Of a stretch of DNA of 64,000 nucleotides, positions 2,849 to 51,592 are shown piece after piece; within the stretch, counting starts at the first letter, position 1, and each line of letters opens with the position of its first letter. The notes beneath the pieces were generated by a model. The model was not told the DNA's origin. It saw only the letters and a list, made by a program, of their open reading frames with translations, and searched no databases. The stretch lies in contig OY969927.1 in NCBI GenBank assembly GCA_963704655.1, forward strand, positions 544,001 to 608,000, given 5' to 3'. The stretch is from an uncultured Candidatus Babeliaceae bacterium. GTDB lineage: Bacteria > Babelota > Babeliae > Babelales > Babelaceae. The position numbers and the translations under genes are program-made.

Positions 2849-4030
2849 ATGAAAAAGTTACTCACGACGTTCTTTTTTTATCTGATCGTTCTTTCTGCAA
2901 CAGAAAGTTCAAACTCTATTCCCGTGATACACCTAAAAACTCCCGATCTTTCTGATGCGCAAATCTTAGGCTATAACGTTGGCGTTCGCCCGTACCGTAA
3001 ATCTGGCGTCAGAATTGAAAGCGAACATCTTGATAATAAACTTATTATTCATAATTACGGCTATGGCGGATCCGGGTTAACCTTATGTTGGGGTGGCGCG
3101 CAGCAAGCAATAGAAATTTTACAAGAAGAACAATCAAAAAATCCTGCACTTGCAGCATGCAAAACTGTCGCAATACTCGGCGCGGGGGTTATTGGTCTTG
3201 CAACAGCGTATGATCTGATGGCGCAAGGCTACGCGGTGCATATATATGCACAAGATTTTCCGCCACACACCACTTCAAATGTTGCAGCAGGCATCTGGAG
3301 CCCGCCTGCGCTATCACCACACTATTCACAAAAAACTAAAGATAGCCTTACAAATATGCTCAGAGTTTCAGAAGAGCGATTTTTGAAAAGCCTAAATTAT
3401 GAAAATTTCGGCCGCATGGATTCGACAGGGCTCACCACGAGCGGCGAGACAAATACTCCAGAATTTGTGGGCATAAAATGCATCGAAGATTATTCGTTTG
3501 AACGGCCAGATAGTGCAACCGCGCTATCGGGAGCATTTGGATTTAGTCATGATTATTCTAGTGAACTTGTTGAATTCAATTTTGATAATGGTGTAAAAAA
3601 AGTTGGCACGCGCCATGCGCAACTTCATCTAGATGGGCCACTCTTTATGGAAAGCCTTTTTAATAAAGTAAAAGCGCAAGCACCCCTAACGAAAATGCAT
3701 TTTAATTCACGTGAAGATATCATGCAATTAGACGAATCTATAATTATAAATTGCACAAGCTTAGGATCACGCGAGCTTTTTAATGATCAGGAATTTAACC
3801 CGGTAAGGGGACAGCTGATATATTTAAAACAACAGCCTGGCATAGATTATATTGTTCATGAAGATGTTGAAGGCTCACATAACTTTTGGGTGACCCTTTA
3901 TCCACTTTCTGACCGACTTTTAATTGGCGGAGTATTTGAACATGGCAAAGAAGATCTTACGCGTAACCAAGAAGTAATCAATGTGTTACTTCACAATGCC
4001 CGCAACTGCTTTCAGCCACTTAATTCTTAA
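2849..4030 (+). CDS. FAD-dependent oxidoreductase, D-amino acid oxidase-like, with signal peptide
   Basis: GVRPYR, HNYGYGGSGLTLCWG, GAGVIGL, TTSNVAAG, PVRGQL. Likely start is the ATG of MKKLL (2849). Confidence 0.85.
   Translation: MKKLLTTFFFYLIVLSATESSNSIPVIHLKTPDLSDAQILGYNVGVRPYRKSGVRIESEHLDNKLIIHNYGYGGSGLTLCWGGAQQAIEILQEEQSKNPALAACKTVAILGAGVIGLATAYDLMAQGYAVHIYAQDFPPHTTSNVAAGIWSPPALSPHYSQKTKDSLTNMLRVSEERFLKSLNYENFGRMDSTGLTTSGETNTPEFVGIKCIEDYSFERPDSATALSGAFGFSHDYSSELVEFNFDNGVKKVGTRHAQLHLDGPLFMESLFNKVKAQAPLTKMHFNSREDIMQLDESIIINCTSLGSRELFNDQEFNPVRGQLIYLKQQPGIDYIVHEDVEGSHNFWVTLYPLSDRLLIGGVFEHGKEDLTRNQEVINVLLHNARNCFQPLNS
3410..3445. repeat. Palindromic repeat family A, in frame inside the DAO-like gene
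   Basis: ggccgcatggattcgacagggctcaccacgagcggc is close to the reverse complement of intergenic 48041-48076 (ggccgcatggttcgacttcgctcaccacgagcggcc). Confidence 0.85.
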
Positions 4031-5204
4031 GCTCAAATAATATCCCTCTGCCTATCTTTTTAATCGAGTTCCACCCTTGCGGCATCGTGCGATTTATCAT
4101 GATCACAATACCACTTTTTTTCCCAGGAATAACCCCGATATACGTATGAAACCCACGGGTAGTGCCCGTTTTTTCAAAAAGTTGACGGTGTGCAGTCGGC
4201 TTTTCTGAACGAGTAATTTTTTGTGCTGGAAAGCCCCATGAAATAGAGTTTTTGGAAACCAGATTATCCACATCTTTTACTTCCCACCCAAGACCATGAC
4301 GTATATGAGCAACTTGTATATGTTGCTTTTGAGTTAATTGCATCGCCTGCGAAATTGAAGCCGGCGTTCCGGGTAAACCGATAGCCGCTTTTAAAAATTT
4401 AAGCATATCAGCGCTTGATGCGCGCACAGCGGCAGCCCCGTGCAGCAACCCATCATCCCAATAACGTGCAGGTTCGCCTACTTTATTCAAGCAATCTGCA
4501 TAGTGGGGCATATAATATGCAGGGACATTAATAGAAATGGGTGACATATTTAAGGGAATTAAAATTCTTTGGATAAAAAGATCATTAATAGATTCATGTG
4601 TTTGTTCTTCTAACGCAACCCGTAATAATTCGATGCCAGGATTTGAATATTGAAACCATAACTCTTCTTTTTGCGCCGGTTTCCATGTGCGCATGTACGT
4701 ATAAAAACTATCTTTACTGGTAACCCATGCTGGCACGTCAAAGGGCATAGTTGAGGTATGGGTACAGAGTTTTTCTAAAGTTGTTTTGCGCAACCTTTTA
4801 TTACCAGCTAAAGCGGGAATATGCTTATTTATAGGATCTGATAGATACATGTGCCCGGCAAGAACCTCTTGTGCAACCAGCAGGCAGGTAAAAACTTTAC
4901 TTACTGAACCGATTTCAAATATGGTATTTTGCGTAATCGGCTTTTTCTTTTCAAGATCTGCGTAACCATATGATAATAAATAACTTTCATCATTATGATA
5001 CAAAGCAATTGCAACACCAGGGATATTGTTTTTCTTCATCCATGGCTTTACAATACTTTTGACATGGCCCTCTAAAGTGTATGGTTGATTTTCTTGAACA
5101 GTAACTTTTTTAGTTTTATTTTTAGGGGCTGACCTAGCGCCCTTTTTTATATTTTTTGCACTGAGTGTGAATATACAAAAAAGAACAAGATACAGTCTCT
5201 TCAT
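4020..5204 (-). CDS. Serine hydrolase, class C (AmpC-like) beta-lactamase family
   Basis: FEIGSVSK (SxxK), YSN and KTG motifs, plus a signal peptide. Confidence 0.85.
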   Translation of the reverse strand: MKRLYLVLFCIFTLSAKNIKKGARSAPKNKTKKVTVQENQPYTLEGHVKSIVKPWMKKNNIPGVAIALYHNDESYLLSYGYADLEKKKPITQNTIFEIGSVSKVFTCLLVAQEVLAGHMYLSDPINKHIPALAGNKRLRKTTLEKLCTHTSTMPFDVPAWVTSKDSFYTYMRTWKPAQKEELWFQYSNPGIELLRVALEEQTHESINDLFIQRILIPLNMSPISINVPAYYMPHYADCLNKVGEPARYWDDGLLHGAAAVRASSADMLKFLKAAIGLPGTPASISQAMQLTQKQHIQVAHIRHGLGWEVKDVDNLVSKNSISWGFPAQKITRSEKPTAHRQLFEKTGTTRGFHTYIGVIPGKKSGIVIMINRTMPQGWNSIKKIGRGILFELKN

Positions 5205-5375
5205 AAATCCCCCTTTTACCCCAAGTCAAATATACTATTTTAAATTCCCATCCTATTATTTAATATAATAATAATTGCCTAAAATTGACATATCTTTAAC
5301 TATTGGCAAACATGACAAACCCACCGCGAAATATGTGAAATGGATAGCCCGCACTAATTAAGCATTCTCATGCTA

Positions 5376-6326
5376 CTATTGCCCAACAACTGATTCTGGT
5401 ATACGAAAAATTTCTTCAATATACTTCACCCTCTCATCAATTTTTTTCTGAATTTGAGGACTAATCCCTTGAGCGCATTCATTTCTAAGCGCTATCATTC
5501 CTTCAAGTTGTATGTGAAGCGAATAGCGATTTTCAATGCTTAACTGATGAAAACGAGCGATAATGTAAAAAAGCTTGCCGTTAGATTGAGGCCCCTTTTG
5601 AACAACCCTTCTAAAATTATCATAAGCTTCTCTTGCAAGTTGCTCTTGATAATCAGTGGTGAAAGGCTTGTTATTGTACTCATGAACGCCAAATACATTG
5701 ACCTTATGCAAAGCAGTTAATATAAGAGCTTTGCGTGAAATGTTATTATCACCCTTAGGATACAATGCATCTAACACACCAGACATCATTACAAACTTAT
5801 TATATGAAGGGATACGTGGAAAATCTATAGAATTCTCAAAAAAAGTATCTGGAACATTTTTCACTGCAAATTCCATCAGGGCCATGGGGCCCGAATAACT
5901 ATTGCGTTCAACAATATCATACCTATACGAACCATCATTATTTTTAATGGGTAGTATCTTACAGAGATCTATTCCGGTTATTTCAGCCCGTGTTAACGGA
6001 TTTTTCACTATTGTATCTGGTGAATTTAAAATATGCAGAACAATTTCGTCTTGTGTTGCCCAATATGATTCCTCATCAGGCAGCACCTCAATGCCCTGCA
6101 TTTTTTGTTGAATGCGTGTTTTCTTTGAAGTATTTTTTTTACTTTTAACTAATACAATAGCCAGGTTATCATGCTGATTTTGCTGCTCTTGTAAAAATGA
6201 AGCAAGAGTTTCAAAGGAATAGGGCGACTCCTTTTCATGGTACTTTTGCACAACATCGTCACATGCGTTTCCTGTCATGACAACCAATGCTCCCATTAAA
6301 AGTGGAGCTATACGAATACTATTCAT
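5376..6326 (-). CDS. Hypothetical secreted protein (paralog of 6329-7183)
   Basis: 316-aa ORF, hydrophobic N-terminus, ESPYSFETL motif shared with its neighbour. Confidence 0.7.
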   Translation of the reverse strand: MNSIRIAPLLMGALVVMTGNACDDVVQKYHEKESPYSFETLASFLQEQQNQHDNLAIVLVKSKKNTSKKTRIQQKMQGIEVLPDEESYWATQDEIVLHILNSPDTIVKNPLTRAEITGIDLCKILPIKNNDGSYRYDIVERNSYSGPMALMEFAVKNVPDTFFENSIDFPRIPSYNKFVMMSGVLDALYPKGDNNISRKALILTALHKVNVFGVHEYNNKPFTTDYQEQLAREAYDNFRRVVQKGPQSNGKLFYIIARFHQLSIENRYSLHIQLEGMIALRNECAQGISPQIQKKIDERVKYIEEIFRIPESVVGQ

Positions 6327-6328
6327 GT

Positions 6329-7183
6329 TTATTTTCCTAAAAGTTTATCAATGTCATCATTAACTGCTTGAGAAACAAGATGCCCAAACTTACTTTGTAA
6401 CTGAGACAACTCGACTTTAAAAATTTCTGAAGATATCTGGTTACTTGAGCATAGATGCGTTACCGTTGTCAAGAAATAAAATACCTCATGCATCTTATCC
6501 TCATCCAACTCGGCTTTCCCTTTTCCAAGCAGTGAATTACAATGGTTATGTGCCTCATTACGTATTGCCTCCTGAAAATGCTCTGTAAAAATAGATAGCT
6601 TTTTATTAACGCTTTCCGCCTGCGCTTTAATCAAAGCATTTAAAAGCAATGCACGACGTGCAATATCTACATCTTCATGTGCCGCCAGCCTATCTAAATA
6701 AAAAGTGATAAAAAAATACTTTTCTGGTGTTGGAACTATTCCAGCAAAATTTACAAAATAGTCTTCAAAAACTTTCTGCCTTGCATGCTTAATGGCATAA
6801 GGCAATATATTTATAGCGTTAATATCATCATGTTTATCAACCATGAAAAAGCCTTGGTCACCACCTTGTAAGCTAATCGTATAGGGAGTGATCACCAAAA
6901 CATCATCTTGAGTATATGCATGTTTAATAATCGTATGTTTAAGCCTTAAAACGTCTGTAGCCAGCTCTTGCGCCTCACACCAATAAGGTTGAGACTTTTC
7001 TTGATGAGATCTTATAATAGCAATCGCACAACGGTCGCCCTGATTCTGAGTATTCTCGATATGCTTTTCCAGCGTTTCTAGGCTATAGGGTGATTCCTGA
7101 TCTAAAAATTTTGATAAAAAAAATTCACCTGCAAATAATGAGTAGTTTATAACACTCAAAAAGACAAAAAAACATCTTTTCAT
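6329..7183 (-). CDS. Hypothetical secreted protein (paralog of 5376-6326)
   Basis: 284-aa ORF, signal peptide, ESPYSLETL motif. Confidence 0.7.
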   Translation of the reverse strand: MKRCFFVFLSVINYSLFAGEFFLSKFLDQESPYSLETLEKHIENTQNQGDRCAIAIIRSHQEKSQPYWCEAQELATDVLRLKHTIIKHAYTQDDVLVITPYTISLQGGDQGFFMVDKHDDINAINILPYAIKHARQKVFEDYFVNFAGIVPTPEKYFFITFYLDRLAAHEDVDIARRALLLNALIKAQAESVNKKLSIFTEHFQEAIRNEAHNHCNSLLGKGKAELDEDKMHEVFYFLTTVTHLCSSNQISSEIFKVELSQLQSKFGHLVSQAVNDDIDKLLGK

Positions 7184-7302
7184 ATAATGAATTACCTTAA
7201 TTTTTTATATTTAATACGTTATCACTTTAACTATATAAGTTTAAACAAGAACTTACGCATTGCAAATAGCTCTATATGGATACATGGAGTATGAATTTTT
7301 TA

Positions 7303-8586
7303 TCAATACAGTTGCAACGATGCAGATGACCATGATGGATATCCGCATTGCGCATATTCCGGCGTTAAGATTTTTTCTGTCTGCGTCATGCAATTATACA
7401 CAGCAATCTGTTCACGCGAGCCTTCAAGGCGAGTATAAACAATATAATTTCCACAGGGCGACCAGCAGGCATCGATTTTATTGCCGGACCCAAACGTTAA
7501 TTGTGTAATTTTTTTACCTTCAGAGTCACAACTATGCAGCTGTAAGACCCCTTTAACCGAGCGAGAAAAGATAATACGGTCAGATGCTTTATGCACATCT
7601 GGTGAAATGCAGTTGCCGGTGATAGGCAATTGATATTGTTTTTTTTCATGACGATCATATCGGTAAATTTTACTATTGCATGAAAAGATAATGTCCCCTG
7701 AACTTAATAACGATGGGCACCCGCACGTATTTTTTGCATCGGTAAGTTTTGTATGACGGCCTCTTCTATTTTTTTTATCAAATTCATACAACCACAAAAT
7801 ACCTGAACGTACATACACAAAGGTTGAATCGTCTTGTTGCGCGGTGCCAACGCATGTGCCACCAAGATCGATAATTGACCAACTGTGTCCATGAAGATCG
7901 ATACCCAAAAGCCGCACATTACTTGGCGTAAATTCTGAAACAGATAACCAAATTCTTTCATGACCACCATCGTCACGACGAGCAGGTTGTATATGGGACC
8001 ATTGCGGTGCAACTAAAATACGATTATCTTTTACCAATGTCTGCGTGGCACCATCAACAGGATCTAACATGCACAGTTCTGTTCTTTTTTTATTACGTAA
8101 TGTTGGGCTCTTTTTAATATAGGCTATTTTTGTTAAAAAATATGATGGGTGATTAAAAAGATGGCTGTATACTTGATCGGCAACTAAGCGCTGGGTCAGT
8201 TCAGGGCTACTGCTGCTCATATTTTTACCGAGTAACATAGTTGCATCAGTTACATCATACAGTCTAAAACTGACATGATCCTGAGTAGTGTGCTGTAAAA
8301 AAAGAATCACCGAAAAACCTTTACTCAAATAAGCAGTTATCTCGTTCTTAGTTGCTGGCGAAGAACCCACTGATAATTTAATCTCAAAAAGCCCGGTGCT
8401 ACTCAGTAATTTTTTTATTTCTTGTGCAACTGGTTGCATGACACTGTCTTCATAGACGAGTGCCATATGAACCGGCTCGCGCGTCTGTGGCTTTTCAATA
8501 ACCAACGGCTCACAAAACGCATAACTGATGAAAGTACACGAAACTATTAACGCTGTTAAAACTGTAGTAAACACTGCTTGCCCCAT
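7303..8586 (-). CDS. tolB: TolB-like beta-propeller protein
   Basis: TKIAYI, PD40-type repeats (WSPCGNYIVY, YPSWS), and position after tolQRA. Confidence 0.8.
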   Translation of the reverse strand: MGQAVFTTVLTALIVSCTFISYAFCEPLVIEKPQTREPVHMALVYEDSVMQPVAQEIKKLLSSTGLFEIKLSVGSSPATKNEITAYLSKGFSVILFLQHTTQDHVSFRLYDVTDATMLLGKNMSSSSPELTQRLVADQVYSHLFNHPSYFLTKIAYIKKSPTLRNKKRTELCMLDPVDGATQTLVKDNRILVAPQWSHIQPARRDDGGHERIWLSVSEFTPSNVRLLGIDLHGHSWSIIDLGGTCVGTAQQDDSTFVYVRSGILWLYEFDKKNRRGRHTKLTDAKNTCGCPSLLSSGDIIFSCNSKIYRYDRHEKKQYQLPITGNCISPDVHKASDRIIFSRSVKGVLQLHSCDSEGKKITQLTFGSGNKIDACWSPCGNYIVYTRLEGSREQIAVYNCMTQTEKILTPEYAQCGYPSWSSASLQLY

Positions 8587-9310
8587 ATACGTTTTGGAAG
8601 ATTACATTTTAATAAAGCACTTTTTGCTGAAATATCATACGCCGGAACACCTGAACTTTGTTGCACGACAACCTCTTGGCAGGCGCCCGTGGCCGATACC
8701 GTTATCATAATATGACACATAGCATCTGGATGTACGCCCATAGGCGGTTGCCACCAACGACGAATAGCGTCCACAATCTCAAATGTTTCCTGCTGTTCAT
8801 TAAACTCATGCACACTCAAAACCAGTGGTTCTTGTGAAACATTTCCAGCAACTATTTCTTTTTGCGCTTGAGGCGGCTCAATAACTTCTGGTTCTTGTGC
8901 CGGTTGCGGAGGTTGGTAGTTTGATGAGCTTTTTTCTTCTTTTTTTTTAGGCCTAAATCAATTTTTGAAAATTGATTAAGAGCACTAAATCGCTTTGCAG
9001 GTTCTTTTGCAGCAGGCTTTACTGGCGCAGGAACTGGTTTATTTTTTTTTACTGGCTCAATTTTAACCGGCGCTTCAGTTTTATGAGCAACTGTTTTTAC
9101 TGGCAAAGCCCGCTTGCTTGAAGAGCGCCATTTTATAATGACGTTATCTGCTTTTTGAAATGTTCGAATGTTAAGCACCATAGTGCTTACCGTCTTTGAC
9201 GTAACAAACAAAAGCGCTAAAAGCACACAGTGTGCACCTAAGACAAAAAGAAGGTGCTTAGTGAACTCCGCCTGAACCGGTGTGAGTTTTTTCTGTAGCA
9301 AACGCAACAT
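8556..9310 (-). CDS. tolA: TolA/TonB-like protein split into two frames at an A9 tract (8940-8948)
   Basis: N-terminal TM anchor and K/P-rich linker in ORF 8852-9310. The -1 frame continues EEKSSSNYQPPQPAQEPEVIEPP into a TolA/TonB C-domain (WQPP..QSSGVPAYDISAKSAL) ending at 8556. Confidence 0.75.
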
Positions 9311-10407: not shown

Positions 10408-10494
10408 CTCGCTAACCCTTCGACACGCTCAGGATGAGCGAGTCTGGAATTCCACTGCCCGCCGCCGCTCGTGGTGAGCCAAGTCGAACCATGC
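10408..10494. repeat. Two family A repeats in inverted orientation, downstream of cca
   Basis: ctcgctaacccttcgacacgctcaggatgagcgag (10408-10442) and gccgctcgtggtgagccaagtcgaaccatgc (10464-10494). Confidence 0.9.
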
Positions 10495-10505: not shown

Positions 10506-12005
10506 TTATTTTACCATACGTTGCACATAACGTAAAAGAGTTTCTTTTGTAGGATTTTGTTGTTCAATCTGATATTCATATACTTTATCCAAAGCGCGCC
10601 CTAACGCGGGCCCTTCAAAGCCCAAGGGCATAAGATCTGCACCGGTTAGAATCGGTTTTTCTGGCTCGTATAAGACACCGTATTCCTGAGCACGTGCAAT
10701 AAATTCATCGATCGCCGGCAACGGGCCAGACAGGGGTGAATATTTTTCTGGGTTTCTGCCAAGTTTGTCTGCATAGGCAAGTTGCGCAAGTATATATAAA
10801 TTTAAATCTGGCGCCAAAACTCTTGCTAATTTCTTATATGCTTTTGCCGTTGCGTTTTGAGATACGAAATGTCCCGGAGCCATATGATGGCGCACCAACA
10901 GCGCTACCTGATCAATTAATTTTTTGTTTCCCGTTAATCGTTTACATAATGCATGCGTAGGTTCAACTCCAGCAGCATCGTGCCCCAAGCTGCGCAGGCG
11001 ACCATCGATGATACGTGTTGTAGTTACTTTGCCAAGATCATGACATAGTGCCGAATAACATAATAACCGTCTATCTATATTACAATTCCCAATGGTTCGA
11101 CTTTGCTCACCATGAGCGGCTCTTATCTCCCCGCTTGTCTCGAGTGAAAATTCTGGAAGAATTTTAGTATCGAGAGAACAGCGGTATACTGCGCCGTCAA
11201 GTGCTTGCATACTATGCTCAAAAACATCGCCCTCTGGGTGCCAACTTTTTTCTTGTTCAATGCCAACCGTTGCTGCAAGTTCGGGTAAAACCTCTTGCAA
11301 GCGGCCGATATCTTTTAACCAATAAATTCCCAAAGATGGTCGTTTACTAAGCATGATTAATTTATCAAACTCAGCATGAATACGTTCAACTGAAATAGCA
11401 GAGATATCCATAGATTTACACACAGCATCAAGCTCATGATTTGGCCGCATTTCAAAGCGGGCAATAAACTGCATAACACGGTAAAAACGTAACGGATCCT
11501 GCACAAAAAAATGGGCATCGGGTGTTGCAAGAACTTTATTTTTTAAATCGGTATATCCACCAAATGGGTCGATTAATTCACCCGTTGCAAGATCTACCGC
11601 CATAGCGTTCATCGTCAAATCACGCCGCTTGAGCGCCTCAGTTATATTCATGGTTGGATCAACTTCAACAACCGGTTTTCTGCCAGAAGAATCACGGCGC
11701 GGAAGGGACCAATCAACGGGTAATGAACCAATGTTTACATTACTCACGCGAAAAACGCCAAAACTTTTCCCATCATAATGAACGGACCCGAATGTAGCCA
11801 ATATTTTTTCTAGCTGGTCACTGGTTATTCCATGAACTTCAATATCAAGATCATGTATCGGTAATTTTAAAAGAAAGTCACGCACAACACCACCAACAGC
11901 ATAAACCCGCGCATTATGTTGCAACAAACAATTGACAATATCGGTAATTATGGGCGAAACTCTTGTGGATACCGATGATAACAATAAGGATTTTTCTATG
12001 AACAT
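10506..12005 (-). CDS. cca: CCA tRNA nucleotidyltransferase with HD domain
   Basis: VGGVVRD, DLDIEV, RRDLTMNAMA, DPLRFYR, HPEGDVFEH, HDLGK. Exact start uncertain. Confidence 0.92.
   Translation of the reverse strand: MFIEKSLLLSSVSTRVSPIITDIVNCLLQHNARVYAVGGVVRDFLLKLPIHDLDIEVHGITSDQLEKILATFGSVHYDGKSFGVFRVSNVNIGSLPVDWSLPRRDSSGRKPVVEVDPTMNITEALKRRDLTMNAMAVDLATGELIDPFGGYTDLKNKVLATPDAHFFVQDPLRFYRVMQFIARFEMRPNHELDAVCKSMDISAISVERIHAEFDKLIMLSKRPSLGIYWLKDIGRLQEVLPELAATVGIEQEKSWHPEGDVFEHSMQALDGAVYRCSLDTKILPEFSLETSGEIRAAHGEQSRTIGNCNIDRRLLCYSALCHDLGKVTTTRIIDGRLRSLGHDAAGVEPTHALCKRLTGNKKLIDQVALLVRHHMAPGHFVSQNATAKAYKKLARVLAPDLNLYILAQLAYADKLGRNPEKYSPLSGPLPAIDEFIARAQEYGVLYEPEKPILTGADLMPLGFEGPALGRALDKVYEYQIEQQNPTKETLLRYVQRMVK
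11092..11184. repeat. Compound family A element, in frame inside the cca HD domain
   Basis: atggttcgactttgctcaccatgagcggc followed by an inverted long variant ccgcttgtctcgag-aaaattct/agaatttt-tcgag..agcgg. Confidence 0.8.
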
Positions 12006-30072: not shown

Positions 30073-30210
30073 GAATCTCGTATAAAGTAAAAAAGAGGAG
30101 CAGATACAAAAACTTCCGCTAACCGTGCTGCTTCTTTTCAGACCTGACACATTATTTAACTGTTTTTTATCTACTCCTCAAGTTTTTTATGCCCAATAAG
30201 TGGCACTAGT

Positions 30211-30243
30211 TCGCTAACCCTTCGACAGGCTCAGGATGAGCGG
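30211..30243. repeat. Family A repeat
   Basis: tcgctaacccttcgacaggctcaggatgagcgg, near-identical to 10409-10440. Confidence 0.9.
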
Positions 30244-30282
30244 ATTGAGACTGGCCCGCCAGGCATTTCTTTCAGGAACGAT

Positions 30283-30335
30283 GGCCTGCCATCTGAAGCT
30301 TGCCAAGCCAGTAGGCGTGGATAAGCGAAAGATGG
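30283..30335. repeat. Family B repeat, long form, overlapping the tRNA-Ser CCA end
   Basis: ggcctgccatctgaagcttgccaagccagtaggcgtggataagcgaaagatgg. Confidence 0.9.
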
Positions 30336-30424
30336 TGGAGAGAGAGGGATTCGAACCCTCGATGCCCTTTTCAGAGCATACATGATTTCCAATCATGCTC
30401 TTTCGGCCTCTCAGACATCTCTCC
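30333..30424 (-). tRNA. tRNA-Ser(GGA)
   Basis: Reverse complement GGAGAGATGTCTGAGAGGCCGAAAGAG-CATGA-TT-GGA-AA-TCATG, long variable arm, GGTTCGAATCCC, TCTCTCCACCA. Confidence 0.96.
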
Positions 30425-30427
30425 GTA

Positions 30428-30452
30428 GTTCGACTTCGCTCACTATGAGTGG
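30428..30452. repeat. Family A repeat filling the rpsB to tRNA-Ser spacer
   Basis: gttcgacttcgctcactatgagtgg. Confidence 0.8.
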
Positions 30453-45175: not shown

Positions 45176-45261
45176 AGCGCCCCCGAATAAAATTTTATTT
45201 ACTATTTATAATTATAACCTGAATAATATTTTTTTAGCTAGAAATAATAAAAAGTGCTCAA

Positions 45262-45293: not shown

Positions 45294-45347
45294 CTTAAAG
45301 AATCTTATAAATTAAGCTTCTACTGAAGAATCGGTATCTTGCGGAGC

Positions 45348-45761
45348 CTACGGCATAGGACAAACTTCTTGTGGTGCAGCAGCAGCTTCTATTTTTTCTG
45401 CTACTTCAGCAGCATTAACTTGTGCATTTAAAGCTGCCTGAATTTCAAGTTTTCTTGCAAGAGATGCTGATATAATTTTTTCAAAAAAAGATATAAAACT
45501 TCCGCAGACCTTACTGTTTGCTGCCAGATCTTCACATCTTTTCAATGTCCCCTTACGAAGATCTAAGAAAGCTTGTACTTTTTCATCGAGCTCTAAAGGA
45601 TTAGTAATTTGGGCTATCTCTTTTGCTTGCACTTCAGCTTGAGCTCTTATCATTATTTCAACAGCTTCTTCAGGCGTAGCTATATAGATTGTTAATCTTT
45701 CCTGCTCAGAGTAAGCAATGTTCTTAGAAAGTAACAATAAACCTAATAATAATTTTTTCAT
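45348..45761 (-). CDS. Secreted hypothetical protein (paralog of 45828-46364)
   Basis: MKKLLLGLL leader; EK..A.L.L..C..VC..FI.F...I..S..RK.E..AAL. Confidence 0.75.
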   Translation of the reverse strand: MKKLLLGLLLLSKNIAYSEQERLTIYIATPEEAVEIMIRAQAEVQAKEIAQITNPLELDEKVQAFLDLRKGTLKRCEDLAANSKVCGSFISFFEKIISASLARKLEIQAALNAQVNAAEVAEKIEAAAAPQEVCPMP

Positions 45762-45827
45762 AAAAACTTTCTACAATTAAAATGCGTTGTATATAAAAAG
45801 GGGGCACATCTTAGGGCCCTAAAAAAT

Positions 45828-46364
45828 CTATATTAATGTTTCTACTTGAGCAGCTTTTTCAGCAGCAGTCTTTGCAGCTTCAATGGCATCAGCAATAACA
45901 GTTGTATCTACTACAGCTTCTGCTTTTGCTTCTAAATCAACAAAATCAGTTTCTGAAGTGGTCTCAACCGCAGCTACTACTGATTCAGTAACTACAGGCT
46001 CATGTGTTTGAGCTAATGCTGCGCCAAGTTCATTTTTACGTTCTTCTGAAACGGTAATCAATCCTTGTACAAATGCAATAAATTCATCACAAACTGCAGG
46101 AACCCCACTTTGTGTACGACAATTGGCTGAAGCATCCTGCTCTATTAATTTCAACAGAGCAAGTCTTTTTTCATTCACATGTGCGTCACTACTTTTAATC
46201 GCAGATACATATTGTCCATGCAGCGCTTCTAGAGCGTTTTGCACTCCATTTTTCATCGATAAACCCATCAAAACACCAGCGGGGTTAAAAAGTCCAGGAT
46301 TAATCTCAATGTTGCAAAAAACTGAATTTGTAACAAACAATAAACCTAACAATATTTTTTTCAT
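45828..46364 (-). CDS. Secreted hypothetical protein (paralog of 45348-45761)
   Basis: MKKILLGLL leader, same core motif, Ala/Glu/Thr-rich tail. Confidence 0.75.
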   Translation of the reverse strand: MKKILLGLLFVTNSVFCNIEINPGLFNPAGVLMGLSMKNGVQNALEALHGQYVSAIKSSDAHVNEKRLALLKLIEQDASANCRTQSGVPAVCDEFIAFVQGLITVSEERKNELGAALAQTHEPVVTESVVAAVETTSETDFVDLEAKAEAVVDTTVIADAIEAAKTAAEKAAQVETLI

Positions 46365-46402
46365 AAGAAGCCTTTCTTAAAAGTTAATATATATTTGCAA
46401 AG

Positions 46403-47929
46403 TTATTCAAAATGCATAAGAAAATCGATAAACAGACGTACACCAAAACCGGTTGCCCCAGGACGATAATAACTCATATCAGGAACATTAAACGAAGTAC
46501 CTGCAATATCCAAATGTACCCATGGCGTTTCACCCACAAAATTTTGTAAGAAAAATCCTGCAGTAATTGCACCAGCTTTATATGTTTCATTACCAATGTT
46601 ACACATATCAGCTATATGCGAACGAACAGCACGTTTATAATCTTCATGAAAAGGAAGACGCCATAGGCGGTCGCCTGAACGCTGAGATGCTATTGTAAGT
46701 TTATCTACTATCTCATCATGATTACTCATCATACCCGCAAAGAAAGGTCCTAAAGCCGCGGCACATGAACCAGTAAGCGTTGCGACGTTAATAATCATGT
46801 CTGGCTTATAATGTTTAACGGCATAAGAAAGCGCATCTGCAAGAATTAAACGGCCTTCTGCATCAGTATTTTTAACTTCAGCGGTCATGCCATTATAAAA
46901 CGTTACGATATCACCCGGTTTAACAGCGGTCCCTGAAGGCATATTTTCTGCAATTGGGGTAATGCCGATAACATTAACACGTGGTTTTAAATGTGAAATT
47001 GCTTCCATAGTTGATATAACTGCAGCTGCACCGGCCATGTCATCTTTCATTTCATCCATGCGTGATGCTGGCTTAATACTAATGCCACCTGAGTCAAAAG
47101 TGATGCCCTTACCAGTAAGAACTATAGTTGGAGCATCTTTATGTTCTGTATGGTACTCGATTGCAACAAAACGGCATTCCTGCACAGAGCCTGCTGCAAC
47201 TGCAGCAAGACCGCCCATGCCCATTTTCTTTACTGTCGGCTCATCATAAACGGTTATTTTTAAATTATGAACCTGCGCAATGCGAACTGCATGCTCAGCA
47301 AGAATTTTAGGAGTCAAAACATCTGCTGGCAAATCACACCATTGACGGGCCTGATTTACTGCATGACCGATTCGTTGACCAAATTCTAAGCCAACTGACA
47401 TTTGATCATGTAAAATCTCAGAAGCACAAAGTATTATTTCTATATCGCGCGTTGATTTATTTGCTGGATCAGTAATAAACTGGTCAAAATGATACGCTGC
47501 CATCATGAAAACAGAGACCAACTCTTTAGTTAATTCAAATTCATTGATTCCAAACCAGTGATGATCTGGCATTAAAACTGCTACTCGTGCAGCTTTTACG
47601 CTTTCAGCAGCTCGAATAACTAAACCCGTAGCACGACGTGCGTATTCTAAACGATCAGTAGCAGATTTTTTTTCTGAACCTAATCCAACCAACAGTAGTG
47701 ATACCGGTTTATTGCTACGAATGGCGGCCAAAAGCAGCTGGCTACCTGCAGCCCCAGTAAAATTACGGTTTTTAATGACTTCATGCAAAGGCGCATACAG
47801 CGTTGAAAAATCTTTAAGTAAATTTTCAAGAAGGGTACTCTCTGAAAGAGCATTTTGGGGACAAAAGCCAACATACAAGTCAGCATCATGCCCTACTATA
47901 TGTTGATTTGCCAGTTTAAAGTTAAGCAT
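46403..47929 (-). CDS. pepA: Leucyl aminopeptidase (M17)
   Basis: GKGITFDSGG, MK.DMAGAA, NTDAEGRL, WVHLDIAG. Confidence 0.96.
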   Translation of the reverse strand: MLNFKLANQHIVGHDADLYVGFCPQNALSESTLLENLLKDFSTLYAPLHEVIKNRNFTGAAGSQLLLAAIRSNKPVSLLLVGLGSEKKSATDRLEYARRATGLVIRAAESVKAARVAVLMPDHHWFGINEFELTKELVSVFMMAAYHFDQFITDPANKSTRDIEIILCASEILHDQMSVGLEFGQRIGHAVNQARQWCDLPADVLTPKILAEHAVRIAQVHNLKITVYDEPTVKKMGMGGLAAVAAGSVQECRFVAIEYHTEHKDAPTIVLTGKGITFDSGGISIKPASRMDEMKDDMAGAAAVISTMEAISHLKPRVNVIGITPIAENMPSGTAVKPGDIVTFYNGMTAEVKNTDAEGRLILADALSYAVKHYKPDMIINVATLTGSCAAALGPFFAGMMSNHDEIVDKLTIASQRSGDRLWRLPFHEDYKRAVRSHIADMCNIGNETYKAGAITAGFFLQNFVGETPWVHLDIAGTSFNVPDMSYYRPGATGFGVRLFIDFLMHFE

Positions 47930-48017
47930 ACAAGTTCTTTCTTTAGTTAGAATTATTGCATCAACTAGTATACCAAAACTTAACCAAAAAGAACGTGCTT
48001 AAAATTAATTCCCAACA

Positions 48018-48076
48018 CTTCGACTTCGCTCAGTGTGAGCGGCCGCTCGTGGTGAGCGAAGTCGAACCATGCGGCC
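48018..48076. repeat. Inverted pair of family A repeats
   Basis: cttcgacttcgctcagtgtgagcgg joined directly to ccgctcgtggtgagcgaagtcgaaccatgcggcc. Confidence 0.9.
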
Positions 48077-48086
48077 TGACAAATAA

Positions 48087-48737
48087 TTAATTAGGTAATC
48101 TTCTAAAACCCATACCGAAACTATAACCGCTGACGGCCATGCCATACCCAAGAGGCGGCTCACCACCCATAACACCATAATACCCTGCGGCATACCACGA
48201 TGGCCTACTAAGCGGGTCTTGATGTGGAGCATTGCACGGGCAATAACGTTCTTTTTTTTGACAACATTGACCATTTTTACAACTACTAAGTGTCTCGCCG
48301 CCTGAATTTTTAATATAAGAAATAAGTTGCTGTTCTGATGGCGATCCTGTTAAATAATCGTAACTTACCACCATGCCATCGATAAAGACAATAAACGTAT
48401 CTGGGCTTTTCAGTGACAAAAAATCTTTAATATTTTTAATGCGATAACGTGATGAATCGATGGTCATAAAATGCACATCTGCTGCGCGAAACTCAGGATA
48501 ACAACTGACATTAAAGAATCTTTTTTTATTACTATGGTAAACAGGCCTGCGCTCAGGGCACTGCTCTGCTTGAGCATGCCGACAGCCGTCATAAATATAT
48601 GCTACGGTAATTTTATGATCAGCGGCTCTATCAAAAAAACGGCCTTGCGTCCGTATCTGTTCTGCATGTAACGCACCATAGACAATCAATAACGCGCATA
48701 CTAATACTATCAAAAAAATATGTAATCTGTATTTCAC
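48087..48737 (-). CDS. Exported hypothetical protein, possibly a degenerate thioredoxin-like fold, with Cys-rich and G/Y/P-rich tail
   Basis: Signal peptide; V.F.TID..PDTFIVFIDG..LTG..EQQL..YI resembles the thioredoxin C-half but has no CxxC. Confidence 0.55.
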   Translation of the reverse strand: MKYRLHIFLIVLVCALLIVYGALHAEQIRTQGRFFDRAADHKITVAYIYDGCRHAQAEQCPERRPVYHSNKKRFFNVSCYPEFRAADVHFMTIDSSRYRIKNIKDFLSLKSPDTFIVFIDGMVVSYDYLTGSPSEQQLISYIKNSGGETLSSCKNGQCCQKKERYCPCNAPHQDPLSRPSWYAAGYYGVMGGEPPLGYGMAVSGYSFGMGFRRLPN

Positions 48738-49831
48738 AAAACCTCCTTATGGACAAAGGGATCATCCATATCTTCAACAATTTTTGCAGTAACTTTATTT
48801 TTTAACACATCATCTAAGAAATTCTTTATAAATGAACGAACCTTATGAGTATATTTTTCTGGGTTATAGAAAAACGAATCAAAATGATTGCGCCCACTAG
48901 TAAGCCATAAGCGTTTATAGCCAGGCTTATTAACATAAATAGAACGAACGGCTTCAACAGGCGCTTTATCATCATTTTTGCAAGTAATGAAAAAAGTAGG
49001 AACGGTAACTTTTTTTATCTCTTGAACGGTATTAGACGGCAATATGCAGGTAGCAATATCATGGGTCCCGACATGAGCAACCGTTTTGAGCGCAAGTTTT
49101 ACCATAGCTTGTATTGAAGGGTTGTAGGCATATTTCTTTAATAACCCACGCCCTGGAAGACCATACTGATAACCACCTATTGAAAAAGTAAGCTGCTCAA
49201 TAAGCCTATGAATAACCATTTCTGTTGAATCAAAAGGGCAATCAAGAATAAGAGCAGAGAACATATCCGGGTGTTGAGCTTGCGCTAAAATCGCAGTTAC
49301 CGCACCCATAGAAAATCCATACGCTATAAGAGGCAACCTTGCCAACTCGAGGTTATTTTTAACAAATGCTACAGCACCTTCAAGATCGAGTACTTCATTA
49401 ACACCAAAAGAACTACATTGATCTTCGATATTTTCACCATGAGCTCTAAAATCAAAAACCATAACATTATAATCATAGAATATGCTTCGTAAAAAACTGA
49501 CATCATTTTTATTACACATAAAACCATGACAAATGACTATCGTCGCCCGTGCACCTGGGCGCGTAACCAGAATCCCCTTACGTAAAATCATTTTTTCAGA
49601 ACCACGCGCTTCAGGAACGGTAAAAACAATCTGTTCAACTTTACCGTTATTATGATACTTTTTGAGCTTTGACTGTTTTTTTATGTCATAATCTTCTTTG
49701 TCTTTGCAATCTGGTGATGCTATAGAACGAGTATAAATATTTTTTATATCAAGATAAAAACGCATACCAACGCCAATAAAGATAACTGTTGCACATGTTA
49801 AAAATATCATGAGTAATATTTTTTTATTCAT
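48734..49831 (-). CDS. Alpha/beta hydrolase, membrane anchored
   Basis: CHGF, FDFRAHG, GFSMG nucleophile elbow, D..AP, C-terminal H. Confidence 0.9.
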   Translation of the reverse strand: MNKKILLMIFLTCATVIFIGVGMRFYLDIKNIYTRSIASPDCKDKEDYDIKKQSKLKKYHNNGKVEQIVFTVPEARGSEKMILRKGILVTRPGARATIVICHGFMCNKNDVSFLRSIFYDYNVMVFDFRAHGENIEDQCSSFGVNEVLDLEGAVAFVKNNLELARLPLIAYGFSMGAVTAILAQAQHPDMFSALILDCPFDSTEMVIHRLIEQLTFSIGGYQYGLPGRGLLKKYAYNPSIQAMVKLALKTVAHVGTHDIATCILPSNTVQEIKKVTVPTFFITCKNDDKAPVEAVRSIYVNKPGYKRLWLTSGRNHFDSFFYNPEKYTHKVRSFIKNFLDDVLKNKVTAKIVEDMDDPFVHKEVL

Positions 49832-50487
49832 AGTCTGCCTTTTCTTTGTGGGTAAGAAAAATTAAACGATTCATAGAATTTAAGCTGTTTATCATAGACC
49901 CGTAATAGCTCATTAACCTTTGTTTGGGGTTGATTATACATATTACCCGGCATAGGCGCCCAAAACCTACTTGCTTTAGTAATAGCGCCCATAATATTAC
50001 TTTTTAAAATCTCATCCATGGCACCAGAGACCACTAATAAAAATACAGCGGCAAGATCTTGATTAACAGGACTGAAATCCCGCAACTCTATACGACTTTT
50101 GACCCAATCCCACGTTTTTTGTAAAAACATATATCTACCTGCGGCCGTAGCGCAAATAATACGATCACCTACCGGATTACAACATCGCACTCTTGGGTGG
50201 TCCTTAAAAGAAGCTAATTTTCCATTATTACAAAAACTTATACGGTATTGATCGGTAGAAATTCTTACTTCAGGATGGTACGAAGTTCCTTCACCATGGG
50301 CCAAAAGATCAAGAAATGCCTTAACTCGAATATCTTTTGATAATATAATAAGGCTGGTTTTATCTGTTGCGATAACAGGCGCCACAGGCTTTATGGGCGA
50401 ATAATTTAATGGCTTTGCCCTCTGAGCCTGCACAAAGCCCGACATAACAATTACAAGTACTGAATATTTTAAAATTAACTTTTCCAT
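49828..50487 (-). CDS. Lambda-R-like lysozyme / lytic transglycosylase (GH104) with signal peptide
   Basis: AFLDLLAHGEGT, F.DHPR, TAAGRYMFL.KTW, DFSP.NQD.AA, WA.MPG..YNQ. Confidence 0.88.
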   Translation of the reverse strand: MEKLILKYSVLVIVMSGFVQAQRAKPLNYSPIKPVAPVIATDKTSLIILSKDIRVKAFLDLLAHGEGTSYHPEVRISTDQYRISFCNNGKLASFKDHPRVRCCNPVGDRIICATAAGRYMFLQKTWDWVKSRIELRDFSPVNQDLAAVFLLVVSGAMDEILKSNIMGAITKASRFWAPMPGNMYNQPQTKVNELLRVYDKQLKFYESFNFSYPQRKGRL

Positions 50488-50770
50488 ATGCTACCTTACC
50501 CTTTTTACAGGTAAGCCTTTACATTACTTAGGTTTCTACTAGTAGCATACAATATTTTTAATTCATTTTGTAATAATTATTTAAATTTAGTTAATCAAGC
50601 AAGCAAATAAAGAGATATTTAAGGATATTAAAAATAGCATTGCCTCATAAATCTGCCCACTGTTATATTTATTATGTAAAAAAACCTTTTATTAAGACGC
50701 TTTATGAGAAATTTTTTCTTTTTTGCCCCATTTTTTCTTAATCTTGTTATAGCCTTGCAAGGCAACAACA

Positions 50771-51079
50771 ATGAATCCCCAAGTATTAGTAAATAATAGC
50801 TACCAATCATTAAATTTTATTATTTATGGGCTGATGAGAAAACGAATTATAAATCTTAAGCCAGGAGAAAGCTACAATGTTCCAAAAAACAGCCTCATAT
50901 TCCTGAACAAATTTGCCAAAATACAAGTCGATCGCCCGAAAGCAGATTTATCCCTTACCATAAAATTTCCTAGCTTATCCGAGGCTACAAATCCATTTCA
51001 TTATGTAATAAGAAATAGAACCACACTGGGAATTGCAGGTTTTAATGAATTTGGATTATATATTTGGGAATTTGCATAA
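50771..51079 (+). CDS. Hypothetical protein, possibly frameshifted from an upstream signal peptide starting at 50704
   Basis: 102-aa ORF. Confidence 0.45.
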   Translation: MNPQVLVNNSYQSLNFIIYGLMRKRIINLKPGESYNVPKNSLIFLNKFAKIQVDRPKADLSLTIKFPSLSEATNPFHYVIRNRTTLGIAGFNEFGLYIWEFA

Positions 51080-51180
51080 CAGCAAGATTCAGATTAATAA
51101 GCTCAAAAGTTGCCATTTTAAAAGGCAAGCTTATTATACTATAACGAAATAACGTCTTTAATATCAGGAAATTTATCGGA

Positions 51181-51298
51181 TCCGACCTTCGTTTATCCAT
51201 GCCTTCCTACTACGCTAAAGCTTCGTAGGACAGGTCCGGCCCTGTACTTCGTAGCTACGTAAGTAGCGAAGTAGTATTGACAAACTTCGGTGGACAGG
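51181..51298. repeat. Nested family B cluster (long copy interrupted by two inverted short copies)
   Basis: Outer arms tccgaccttcgtttatccatgcctt and ttgacaaacttcggtggacagg; inner copies at 51206-51234 and 51241-51273. Confidence 0.8.
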
Positions 51299-51304
51299 CG
51301 GTCG

Positions 51305-51535
51305 CTATTGAACTGCAACAACGTCTTTGATAGTAGGGAATTTCTCTGAAAGTCGATCTAGGATACCCATTTTTAGGGTCATAAAAGAATAAGGGCATGA
51401 TACACATGCCCCTAAAAACTTAATTGTCACAACGCCATTAACAAAACTAACAAACTCAATATCGCCGCCATCTTTTTTTATAAGTGGCCGAATATCTTGT
51501 TCGATTACTGCTTTAATGTCGTTGTCCATAGTCAT
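51305..51535 (-). CDS. NifU/NfuA-like Fe-S scaffold domain protein
   Basis: IRP....DGGDIE, GACVSCP.S.MTLK.GI. Confidence 0.92.
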   Translation of the reverse strand: MTMDNDIKAVIEQDIRPLIKKDGGDIEFVSFVNGVVTIKFLGACVSCPYSFMTLKMGILDRLSEKFPTIKDVVAVQ

Positions 51536-51563
51536 AAAATACCTAACTCTTGCCAGTCCCCAA

Positions 51564-51592
51564 CCCTTCGACTACGCTCAGGGCGAGCGGCC
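51564..51592. repeat. Family A repeat between rplQ and the NifU-like gene
   Basis: cccttcgactacgctcagggcgagcggcc. Confidence 0.9.

What the first reader, a model, noticed from the sequence alone, without database searches (positions are those of the whole stretch)
3410..51592. Palindromic repeat family A spreads between genes and in frame into protein genes (RPE-like)
Seen: a 27-36-nt imperfect hairpin, approximate consensus (CCC/TGG)TTCGAC-N2-3-GCTCA-N4-GAGCGG. It occurs intergenically at 10408, 10464 (inverted), 30211, 30428, 48018, 48043 (inverted) and 51564. It also occurs inside three intact ORFs without breaking the frame: DAO-like 3410, cca 11092 and dnaX 28311. Copies often form inverted pairs, like REP/REPIN units. 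Known: Rickettsia palindromic elements insert in frame and add peptide segments to proteins, and REP elements are associated with RAYT (TnpA-REP) HUH transposases. Inference: this is a recently active non-autonomous element adding new protein sequence in this lineage. No mobilising enzyme is visible in the window. The coding copies use different frames and orientations, which points to a DNA/RNA-level element rather than a peptide motif.
Basis: partly seen in the sequence, partly recalled or inferred. Interest (0 to 1): 0.85.

Follow-up and report, generated by a model that had tools for sequence, protein, structure and literature searches.

The report
Hairpin repeats written into housekeeping proteins
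A short DNA repeat has spread through this small bacterial genome, between genes and in frame inside many essential genes, and small nuclease genes elsewhere in the genome are framed by copies of the same repeat.

Summary
The strict motif occurs 68 times in the 1.3-Mb genome and a profile finds 99-136 copies; controls give 0-1.

Eighteen copies lie inside 17 intact ORFs, in both orientations and all six frames. The hosts include cysS, valS, hisS, pheT, mnmE, mnmG, cca, dnaX, dnaG and pcrA. In 7 of 9 genes compared with five same-genus genomes the insert is unique to this genome. Two are shared with at least one congener.

No RAYT gene was found. Five ~100-aa GIY-YIG genes outside the window are each bracketed by inverted copies. 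The same pairing recurs in relatives and in 80 loci from many phyla. Repeat-rich Dependentiae genomes nearly always carry this nuclease.

The motif does not fit the published Ssn-related motif, and the nuclease is nearer UPF0213 proteins.

Verdict: an RPE/REP-like element with an Ssn-like partner, a new variant of a known kind. Earlier notes of this scan report similar cases on other DNA.

The parts
3411..3445 (+). Type-2 copy (stem TGG/CCA) read in frame, sense, as GRMDSTGLTTSG inside the DAO-like ORF 2834-4030(+)
   Evidence: The same element sits at the same place in the 74%-identical orthologue of same-genus genome G004, so this insertion is older and shared.
10409..10440 (+). Type-1 copy (stem CCC/GGA, 3' box GAGCGA), intergenic between an exbB-like ORF and cca
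   Evidence: E 1.3e-7. It forms a tail-to-tail pair with the copy at 10463-10492.
10463..10492 (-). Type-2 copy, the inverted partner of 10409-10440 (gap about 22 nt)
11073..11165 (-). In-frame insertion of about 29-31 codons in cca (ORF 10506-12005, -). It contains the type-2 copy at 11087-11120, read antisense as AAHGEQSRTIGN
   Evidence: The segment is absent from all 24 relatives searched, which show split matches, and from 10 of 10 aligned orthologues. In the AlphaFold model it is the only long low-confidence segment (residues 281-308), lying between two confident helices.
28309..28337 (-). Type-1 copy in dnaX (ORF 27780-29366, -), read sense as PFDYAQGER
   Evidence: It is a net +8 codons relative to same-genus G003, G001 and G002, in the variable linker after the ATPase domains.
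30212..30244 (+). Type-1 copy, intergenic between SRP RNA (30089-30182) and a tRNA (30336-30424)
30429..30449 (+). Degenerate copy (GTAGTTCGACTTCGCTCACTATGAGTGG) next to the tRNA
   Evidence: E 0.0011. This is the weakest of the ten.
48009..48070 (.). Abutting tail-to-tail doublet: a type-4 copy (stem CAC/GTG, +) joined at GAGCGG|CCGCTC to a type-2 copy (-)
   Evidence: It folds as one long hairpin at -19.9 kcal/mol, z -5.1. Near-identical doublets lie at genome positions 708635 and 740094.
51556..51592 (+). Type-1-like copy (stem CCCT/AGGG), 19 nt beyond the 3' end of rplQ (51611-51970, -)

Best explanation
Family A is the minimal form of a superfamily of oriented DNA repeats. Each unit has two conserved boxes, TTCGAC and GCTCA-N4-GAGCGG. 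The 4-5 nt before the first box pair with the N4, giving a stem that varies in sequence but stays complementary.

The repeats behave as gene-less (MITE/REP-like) derivatives of a tiny cassette. That cassette is a ~100-aa single-domain GIY-YIG nuclease gene ('GIY-A', UPF0213-like) bracketed by two outward-facing inverted copies.

Shown: copies and tail-to-tail doublets have entered new sites in this lineage. Most are intergenic, but 18 lie inside 17 intact ORFs. There they survive only as in-frame, stop-free inserts of 8 to about 40 codons.

Shown: the nuclease and the repeat go together, across genera and across phyla.

Inferred: the nuclease recognises the folded single-stranded motif and nicks next to it, as its distant relative SsnA does with NTS. 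Host repair or replication then copies the element into new places. The strand-joining step is unknown.
For: Abundance:
- The strict motif occurs 68 times, against 0 for the reversed pattern.
- The profile finds 99 copies at E<1e-3 and 136 at E<1, against 1 hit at E<1 in the reversed genome.

Structure:
- Stem classes in this genome are TGG/CCA, CCC/GGG, CAC/GTG and TAC/GTA.
- In 150 copies from other phyla, 89.6% of cells pair against 68.9% in shuffles (0 of 500 reach it). Slid controls give 30-46%, and 5 of 5 pairs show compensatory changes.

DNA-level insertion:
- 71 of 99 copies lie in the ~12.5% of the genome that is non-coding. 18 are internal to ORFs and use all six frames.
- Segments unique to this genome against same-genus genomes: cca, dnaX, mnmG, valS, pcrA, cysS and mnmE, which is 7 of 9 genes tested. 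The DAO-like gene and hisS are shared or polymorphic.
- Copies nested inside other copies exist.

Nuclease link:
- No RAYT was found.
- All 5 GIY-A genes in G000 have the reverse-complement copy upstream and the forward copy downstream, each with its own subtype.
- In relatives' genomes most of the 16 GIY-A loci inspected by eye show the same layout.
- In 80 loci from many phyla, the nearest upstream hit is on the minus strand in 47 of 51, the nearest downstream hit is on the plus strand in 40 of 45, and both hold in 33 of 80.
- The two flanks of one gene share the identical stem in 15 of 33 loci against 3.9 expected.
- In 201 Dependentiae genomes, 18 of 19 with 20 or more copies and 27 of 34 with 10 or more carry GIY-A, against 36 of 167 with fewer.
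Against: - GIY-YIG enzymes are hydrolytic nucleases with no known strand-transfer activity (established knowledge), so how an element would be inserted is unexplained.
- I found no consistent target-site duplication at the empty sites.
- There is no orientation bias relative to replication (44 of 99, p 0.31) or to transcription (28 against 19). IS200/IS605-type ssDNA elements usually show such a bias (recalled).
- Single units are not unusually stable hairpins.
- Seven genomes with 10-20 copies had no GIY-A match. Twenty-three genomes with GIY-A lack the minimal motif, although those I inspected carry long variants.
- The co-occurrence statistics ignore relatedness among genomes.
- The A3 covariation alignment was fitted to the model's structure.
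- Translation of the inserts is inferred from intact frames only.
Confidence: 0.62

Rival explanations
1. The pairing of nuclease and repeat is real, but the nuclease does not spread the repeats. As proposed for SsnA/NTS in Neisseria, it would be a domesticated single-strand DNA nuclease that uses the motifs as recognition sites, for example to restrict incoming or aberrant ssDNA. The motifs themselves would spread by recombination, template switching or some other unidentified activity.
For: Chenal et al. show that SsnA cleaves ssDNA near NTS and modulates transformation, and they only hypothesise an IS-like origin (sections 10 and 12 read). Here 7 genomes with 10-20 copies had no GIY-A match. 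No target-site duplication and no strand bias were seen.
Against: The cassette itself looks mobile. It occurs at 50-60% protein identity in many phyla, always with its flanks, and in several copies per genome, some broken. Its two flanks match each other more than chance allows. Inserts inside essential genes are hard to explain as selected recognition sites.
Confidence: 0.25
2. A classical REP/REPIN family mobilised by a RAYT (IS200-like HUH tyrosine transposase).
For: The repeats are short and palindromic and often sit in inverted pairs.
Against: PF01797 gives 0 matches in a single-contig genome rated 96% complete, while the same search rings in 6 of 14 control genomes. There is no conserved GTAG tag. 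The genes bracketed by the repeats are GIY-YIG genes.
Confidence: 0.03
3. The repeats are functional sites selected in place, such as terminators, mRNA stabilisers or protein-binding sites, or a peptide module selected at the protein level, rather than mobile DNA.
For: The copy at 51556 lies just beyond rplQ. REPs in other bacteria often sit downstream of genes (Di Nocera 2013, abstract).
Against: Intergenic contexts follow the background: tandem 47, divergent 17 and convergent 7, against 58%, 25% and 16% of intergenic bases. There is no bias relative to transcription. Single units fold weakly. No Rfam family matches them. All six frames are translated, and the inserts are absent from orthologues.
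Confidence: 0.04

Closest known systems
Ssn nucleases with NTS / Ssn-related motifs (SsnA of Neisseria meningitidis; Chenal et al. 2025, PMC11893778; abstract and sections 6, 7, 10, 12, 17, 18 read)
   Same: A single-domain GIY-YIG protein of about 100 aa is bracketed by inverted, oriented hairpin repeats that also occur in tens to hundreds of solo copies. Repeat-rich genomes usually hold the gene. Symbionts and intracellular bacteria are enriched among such genomes.
   Different: The motif is another one. The published SRM search pattern matches 0 of 136 copies here and 0 of 80 GIY-A loci. GIY-A is 28% identical (pairwise E 1e-7) to an SRM-flanked SsnA-type protein found in the same Rhizorhabdus genome that also holds a GIY-A with our motif. 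Here the conserved bases lie inside the stem's loop and 3' of it, not in 5'/3' tails. About 2% of NTS copies are in genes in N. meningitidis (their Discussion), against 18 of 99 here.
Rickettsia palindromic elements (RPEs; Ogata et al. 2000 and 2002, known to me only through the MITE review PMC10969869 and Di Nocera 2013, passages read)
   Same: Palindromic repeats are inserted in frame into unrelated housekeeping genes of an intracellular bacterium with a reduced genome. They are often dimers or groups that add 20-30 residues.
   Different: The sequences are unrelated. The units here are 27-36 nt, against about 150 bp for the first RPEs. The host phylum is different. A candidate partner enzyme is present in the same genome.
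REP/REPIN elements with RAYT transposases, and the GTAG- and CGTC-tagged REP superfamilies (Di Nocera et al. 2013, PMC3733652; abstract and passages read)
   Same: The repeats are short palindromes, inverted dimers are common, some copies are intragenic, and a small gene is flanked by its own repeats.
   Different: There is no GTAG or CGTC tag and no RAYT. Dimers here are tail-to-tail, 9 of 9, whereas head-to-head dimers predominate in their Table 1.
UPF0213 GIY-YIG proteins (BH0048, PDB 1zg2; EF2693, PDB 1ywl), function unknown
   Same: The GIY-A profile matches both at E 1.5e-21 and 5.7e-21 over nearly the full length.
   Different: I found no paper that links UPF0213, YhbQ or COG2827 proteins to repeats. 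Whether those two proteins are themselves flanked by such motifs was not tested.

Membership tests
Ssn / SRM system (Chenal 2025) | A single-domain GIY-YIG protein of about 100 aa flanked on both sides by inverted hairpin repeats | tested here: met
   All 5 GIY-A genes in G000. Both flanks in the canonical orientation in 33 of 80 loci from other phyla.
Ssn / SRM system (Chenal 2025) | The repeat fits the published SRM search sequence HGTCWY...RNCYNB (section 17 of the paper) | tested here: not met
   0 of 136 copies overlap an SRM match. The genome has 4 SRM matches, against 1-6 in shuffles. 0 of 80 GIY-A loci have one.
Ssn / SRM system (Chenal 2025) | The protein belongs to cd10448, or gives blastp E<1e-10 at 75% cover to N. 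meningitidis SsnA | tested here: inconclusive
   No CDD and no SsnA sequence were on hand. As a proxy I used an SRM-flanked SsnA-type protein from Rhizorhabdus: 28% identity and pairwise E 1e-7 to GIY-A. The GIY-A profile hits UPF0213 structures at 1e-21, but the proxy, searched as a single sequence, hits them only at 0.026. Profile and single-sequence searches are not strictly comparable.
Ssn / SRM system (Chenal 2025) | Site-specific cleavage of single-stranded DNA next to the motif | not testable with these tools
   This needs a nuclease assay.
REP/REPIN with RAYT | A RAYT (Y1_Tnp, PF01797) gene in the genome, flanked by the repeats | tested here: not met
   0 matches in G000, which is 96% complete and a single contig. 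The control genomes ring.
REP/REPIN with RAYT | A conserved GTAG tag at one end of the palindrome | tested here: not met
   The consensus and information profile of 68 copies show no such tag. GTAG appears only by chance in the variable N3 of some copies.
Rickettsia palindromic elements (works like) | A palindromic repeat inserted in frame in unrelated protein genes and absent from orthologues | tested here: met
   18 copies in 17 ORFs. 7 of 9 genes tested have same-genus orthologues without the segment.
Rickettsia palindromic elements (member of) | Sequence similarity to one of the RPE families of Rickettsia | not tested
   No RPE sequences were on hand. Size and host differ. Di Nocera equates RPE-4 and RPE-6 with CGTC REPs, and our motif does not fit the CGTC/SRM pattern.
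MITE (IS-derived, TIR plus TSD) | A target-site duplication flanking the insert | tested here: inconclusive
   Filled against empty sites show only short, inconsistent direct repeats, such as AAAAAAAT at pcrA and CAAT at cysS. The relatives are too diverged to fix the borders.
UPF0213-type GIY-YIG nucleases | Full-length sequence similarity and conserved GIY, YIG, Arg and Glu positions | tested here: met
   PDB profile search E 1.5e-21 and 5.7e-21. Invariant Y19, G21, R29, H33 and E65, and nearly invariant Y9, in 17 sequences.

The most novel reading that the evidence does not exclude
The UPF0213-like GIY-YIG gene and the roughly 24-nt motif CCYTTCGAC-N2-3-GCTCAGGRYGARCGG form a third, so far undescribed superfamily of nuclease-associated palindromic repeats, alongside GTAG/RAYT and CGTC/Ssn. 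It has spread horizontally through at least eight bacterial phyla. Its nuclease keeps 50-60% identity and its motif is almost unchanged. Its gene-less copies and doublets are what write extra loops into essential proteins of reduced genomes such as this one. If so, this gives a testable function to an orphan protein family and supplies a new set of matched nuclease and ssDNA-motif pairs.
Probability: 0.5. Interest if true: 0.82.

Novelty: new variant of a known kind. Interest (0 to 1): 0.7.

Why it matters
Three reasons.

1. It gives a concrete enzyme candidate for RPE-like 'protein-coding palindromes'. Their means of spread has been open since they were found in Rickettsia. CGTC REPs were still said to lack a dedicated transposase in 2013 (Di Nocera, abstract).

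2. It suggests a function for the UPF0213/COG2827-type GIY-YIG proteins, and a motif to test them on. The motif is conserved from Dependentiae to Proteobacteria, Chloroflexota and Planctomycetota. That would extend the newly described class of site-specific ssDNA nucleases with new specificities.

3. It matters for annotation. In this 1.3-Mb genome at least 15 named housekeeping genes carry translated repeat inserts, so protein lengths, alignments and phylogenies of such genomes are affected by selfish DNA.

Tried and rejected
- RAYT/IS200: a PF01797 search of the genome found nothing.

- Known RNA family: an Rfam gathering scan of the window gave only two tRNAs and SRP RNA.

- Published SRM/NTS patterns do not match family A.

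- Replication-strand or transcription bias, or enrichment in convergent spacers: none found.

- Target-site duplications: no consistent one.

- Public runs: no RNA holder was listed. Only four low-share DNA contig sets held parts of the stretch. Laying them gave short pieces and no joints across any copy. One 211-base contig (X3) covers the cca insert without differences. This gives no evidence on expression or on presence/absence polymorphism.

- Literature: exact motif strings and two derived peptides gave 0 papers. GIY-YIG/Ssn/hairpin from 2025 on gave only Chenal et al. as relevant. Dependentiae with palindromic repeats gave nothing relevant. UPF0213/YhbQ/COG2827/cd10456/cd10448 gave no link to repeats. 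The Minerva preprint only uses SsnA loci as a benchmark. Motif strings are not in the main text of Di Nocera 2013, nor in 12 of the 14 supplementary files of Chenal et al. (files 13 and 14 were not searched, and figures are not held). Motifs printed only in figures or in unsearched supplements could therefore have escaped me.

- Look-up of earlier scan notes by sequence found nothing.

- First-pass co-occurrence in 41 relatives was weak: both 4, motif only 6, GIY-A only 6, neither 25. The larger sample of 201 genomes gave the clear signal.


Full report
**Setting.** The window is G000:C1:544001-608000 of a single-contig genome of 1,298,077 bp with 38% G+C, rated 96% complete. Earlier notes of this scan call it a Dependentiae (Babeliaceae) bacterium. 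I did not test that label. It agrees with Babeliales MAGs being among the best hits of one of its genes.

**1. The observation.**
- The strict pattern TTCGAC-N2-3-GCTCA-N3-5-GAGCGG matches 8 times in the window, against 0 in 100 shuffles.
- It matches 68 times in the genome. The reversed pattern matches 0 times.
- A profile HMM built from the 68 copies finds 99 copies at E<1e-3 and 136 at E<1. The reversed genome gives one hit below E 1.
The copy at 30429 is the weakest.

**2. Anatomy.**
- The invariant parts are TTCGAC, GCTCA and GAGCG(G).
- The 4-5 nt before TTCGAC covary with the four bases between GCTCA and GAGCGG. The classes are ATGGA/CCAC (22 copies), AACCC/GGAT (19), AACAC/GTGT (5) and AATAC/GTAT (2), with others. 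I call these type 2, type 1 and type 4.
- I built a covariance model from nine window copies and ran it on 80 loci from other phyla. It gave 160 hits.
- On the 150 best hits the 5-bp stem pairs in 89.6% of cells, against 68.9% in shuffles (0 of 500 reach it) and 30-46% when the partner is slid. All five pairs show compensatory changes. That alignment was fitted to the model, which favours the structure somewhat.
- Thermodynamically a single unit is unremarkable. It folds at -3.9 to -5.9 kcal/mol with z from -1.9 to +0.25, and the minimum-energy fold is the small GCTCA/TGAGC hairpin.
- The abutting doublet at 48009-48072 forms one long hairpin at -19.9 kcal/mol, z -5.1.
- Adjacent copies are always tail-to-tail (9 of 9).
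- Type 2 is the usual partner. 15 of 31 type-2 copies have an inverted 3' box within about 22 nt, against 1 of 56 type-1 copies and 23 of 2000 random sites.
- A looser pattern of the two boxes finds 118 elements, against 1 in the reversed genome. 72 are minimal. 46 are long forms whose middle holds a further, variable hairpin or a nested copy.

**3. Where the copies are.** I made rough gene calls: 1190 ORFs covering 87.5% of the genome.
- Of the 99 copies, 71 are intergenic and 18 are internal to ORFs. Four lie near 5' ends, two near 3' ends and four overlap an edge.
- The 18 internal copies lie in 17 ORFs. Fifteen of these have family matches: cysS, tlyA, dprA, a DAO-like oxidoreductase, cca, dnaX, pcrA/uvrD, pheT, valS (two copies), hisS, a PMT-like protein, mnmE, dnaG, mnmG and an MBL-fold hydrolase.
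- They are read in both orientations and in all six frames. The peptides include PFDYAQGER, LTLRQAQDER, MDSTGLTTSG, AHPEPVEGLA, PLVVSEVESIA, AARGERSRIH and PLILSLSKG.
- A DNA-level element explains this. A peptide motif does not.

**4. Empty sites.** I compared nine host genes with five genomes of the same genus, and two of them also with more distant relatives.
- Seven segments are unique to this genome:
  - cca: +29-31 residues. All 24 relatives show a split match, and 10 of 10 aligned orthologues lack the segment.
  - dnaX: +8 residues.
  - mnmG: +31 residues, a long-form plus type-2 doublet. Flanks are up to 93% identical in the closest congener.
  - valS: about 37-40 residues, three modules.
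  - pcrA: +16 residues. The closest orthologue is 92% identical.
  - cysS: +13 residues.
  - mnmE: about 24-28 residues, a doublet.
- Two are not unique:
  - The DAO-like gene of G004 carries the same element at the same place.
  - In hisS, G003 has a decayed copy in the same frame, G004 has none, and G002 has a copy in another frame at the same spot.
- An AlphaFold model of the CCA enzyme has mean pLDDT 86.2. Its only long low-confidence segment is residues 281-308, which is the insert, between two confident helices. Part of that low confidence is simply the lack of aligned sequences over the insert.

**5. The partner gene.**
- No RAYT was found.
- PF01541 (GIY-YIG) matches ten places in the genome.
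- Five of them are paralogues of about 100 aa, which I call GIY-A. They lie at 482659, 488366, 767552 and 474580, plus a truncated one at 375531.
- Each has a reverse-complement copy upstream and a forward copy downstream. The flanks are type 1 at 482659 and 488366, type 2 at 767552, and long forms at the other two.
- In the 41 nearest genomes (including G000), ten hold a strong GIY-A match. Most of the 16 relatives' loci I inspected show the same bracketing, with variant stems or long forms.
- A scan of one genome per species found 547 relatives. The best 80 are 46-62% identical. They come from Sphingomonadales, Burkholderiales, Methylococcales, Dehalococcoidia, Kuenenia, Nitrospiraceae, Geobacter, Binatia, Myxococcales and others.
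- The minimal motif lies within 300 nt of the gene in 50 of the 80.
- By the covariance model, the nearest upstream hit is on the minus strand in 47 of 51 loci. The nearest downstream hit is on the plus strand in 40 of 45. Both hold in 33 of 80.
- The two flanks of one gene share the identical stem in 15 of 33 loci, against 3.9 expected (0 of 2000 shuffles reach it).
- In a sample of 201 Dependentiae genomes the motif occurs in 68, spread over 43 of 120 genera, with up to 82 copies. G000 has 69.
- GIY-A (best E 1e-28 or lower) occurs in 63 of them.
- It is present in 18 of 19 genomes with 20 or more copies and in 27 of 34 with 10 or more, against 36 of 167 of the rest. Fisher p is 2e-10, uncorrected for relatedness.

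**6. Relation to what is known.** Chenal et al. (2025) described SsnA, a GIY-YIG nuclease that cuts single-stranded DNA next to NTS hairpins, and thousands of homologues flanked by 'Ssn-related motifs'.
- The layout here is the same, but the motif is not. Their search pattern matches none of our copies and none of the 80 loci.
- One Rhizorhabdus genome holds both systems side by side. It has an SsnA-type gene between four canonical CGTCATTCCCGCG...GGGAATCC hairpins, and a GIY-A gene with our motif.
- The two proteins are 28% identical.
- The GIY-A profile matches the UPF0213 structures 1zg2 and 1ywl at about 1e-21. The SsnA-type protein matches them only at 0.026.
- In-frame palindromes are known from Rickettsia (RPEs) and from tagged REPs in several species.
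- I therefore file this as an RPE/REP-like element with an Ssn-like partner, and not as a member of the Ssn/SRM family as published.
- I found no paper giving this motif or linking UPF0213-type proteins to repeats. Figures and two supplementary files could not be searched.
- Earlier notes of this scan had already pointed to the GIY-YIG cassettes in this genome and to similar in-frame repeats in other genomes. I re-tested the former and did not test the latter.

**7. Mechanism.**
- Shown: DNA-level insertion in this lineage, selection for a paired stem, and the nuclease-repeat association.
- Inferred: that the nuclease recognises the folded single strand and that its cut starts the copying.
- Against a simple transposon model: no consistent target duplication, no strand bias, and an enzyme class without known strand transfer.
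- The main rival is that the nuclease merely uses the motifs, as proposed for Neisseria, while something else spreads them.

Noticed in passing
G000:C1:488366-488671 and 767552-767905 (outside the window; loci L072, L071): Two GIY-A genes end inside their own downstream repeat. The stop codon of the 488366 copy is the TAA of the element's CGCTAACCC arm. The 767552 copy reads through a type-2 unit, giving ...CRMDSTTLTTSG..., the same peptide that the DAO-like gene of the window carries.
   Followed up: partly
G000:C1, e.g. 474485, 474561, 188589, 794410, 1192283 (outside the window): There are about 30 long-form elements of the shape TTCGATACA-[hairpin]-CACTCAGGRTGCACGG. Their central stem differs from copy to copy but stays complementary. 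How copies of one family come to differ in this way is unexplained.
   Followed up: partly
G000:C1:736188, 374260, 1022402, 951399, 13946 (outside the window): Some elements carry another element, in reverse orientation, nested in their central part. The middle of an element may be a preferred insertion site.
   Followed up: no
G000:C1:358007, 959051, 423939 (outside the window): Three hairpins of the shape TGTCATCCCGGACTCGATCCGGGATC fit the published Ssn-related motif. The total number of pattern matches (4) is at chance level, and no SsnA-type gene was looked for.
   Followed up: no
hisS: L009 (G000:C1:788037-789344) against L208, L209, L210: The same spot of hisS is in four states in four congeners: an intact copy, a decayed copy in the same frame, no copy, and a copy of another subtype in another frame. 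This means either an insertion hot spot or an old insert that has been remodelled.
   Followed up: partly
window 30089-30449: SRP RNA (30089-30182) and a tRNA (30336-30424) are each followed or preceded within a few tens of bases by a repeat copy (30212-30244, 30429-30449).
   Followed up: no
window 2834-4030: In the DAO-like ORF, the best-scoring matched stretch to the FAD-oxidoreductase profiles begins only at residue 107-112 and covers only the first ~50-70 profile positions (Pfam reports a second stretch that I did not see). Only one of five congeners (G004) has a close orthologue. The true start and the state of this gene are unclear.
   Followed up: no
G000:C1:231537-231788, 1291162-1291413, 1292190-1292288 (outside the window): A second kind of small GIY-YIG gene (83 aa) is nearest to SLX1 in the PDB search. 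No family-A profile hit lies within 600 nt of it.
   Followed up: partly
L186 (genome contigs record titled Nitrososphaera sp. MAG): One GIY-A cassette with the motif lies on a 1.7-kb contig binned as an archaeon. This could be a binning error or a real transfer.
   Followed up: no
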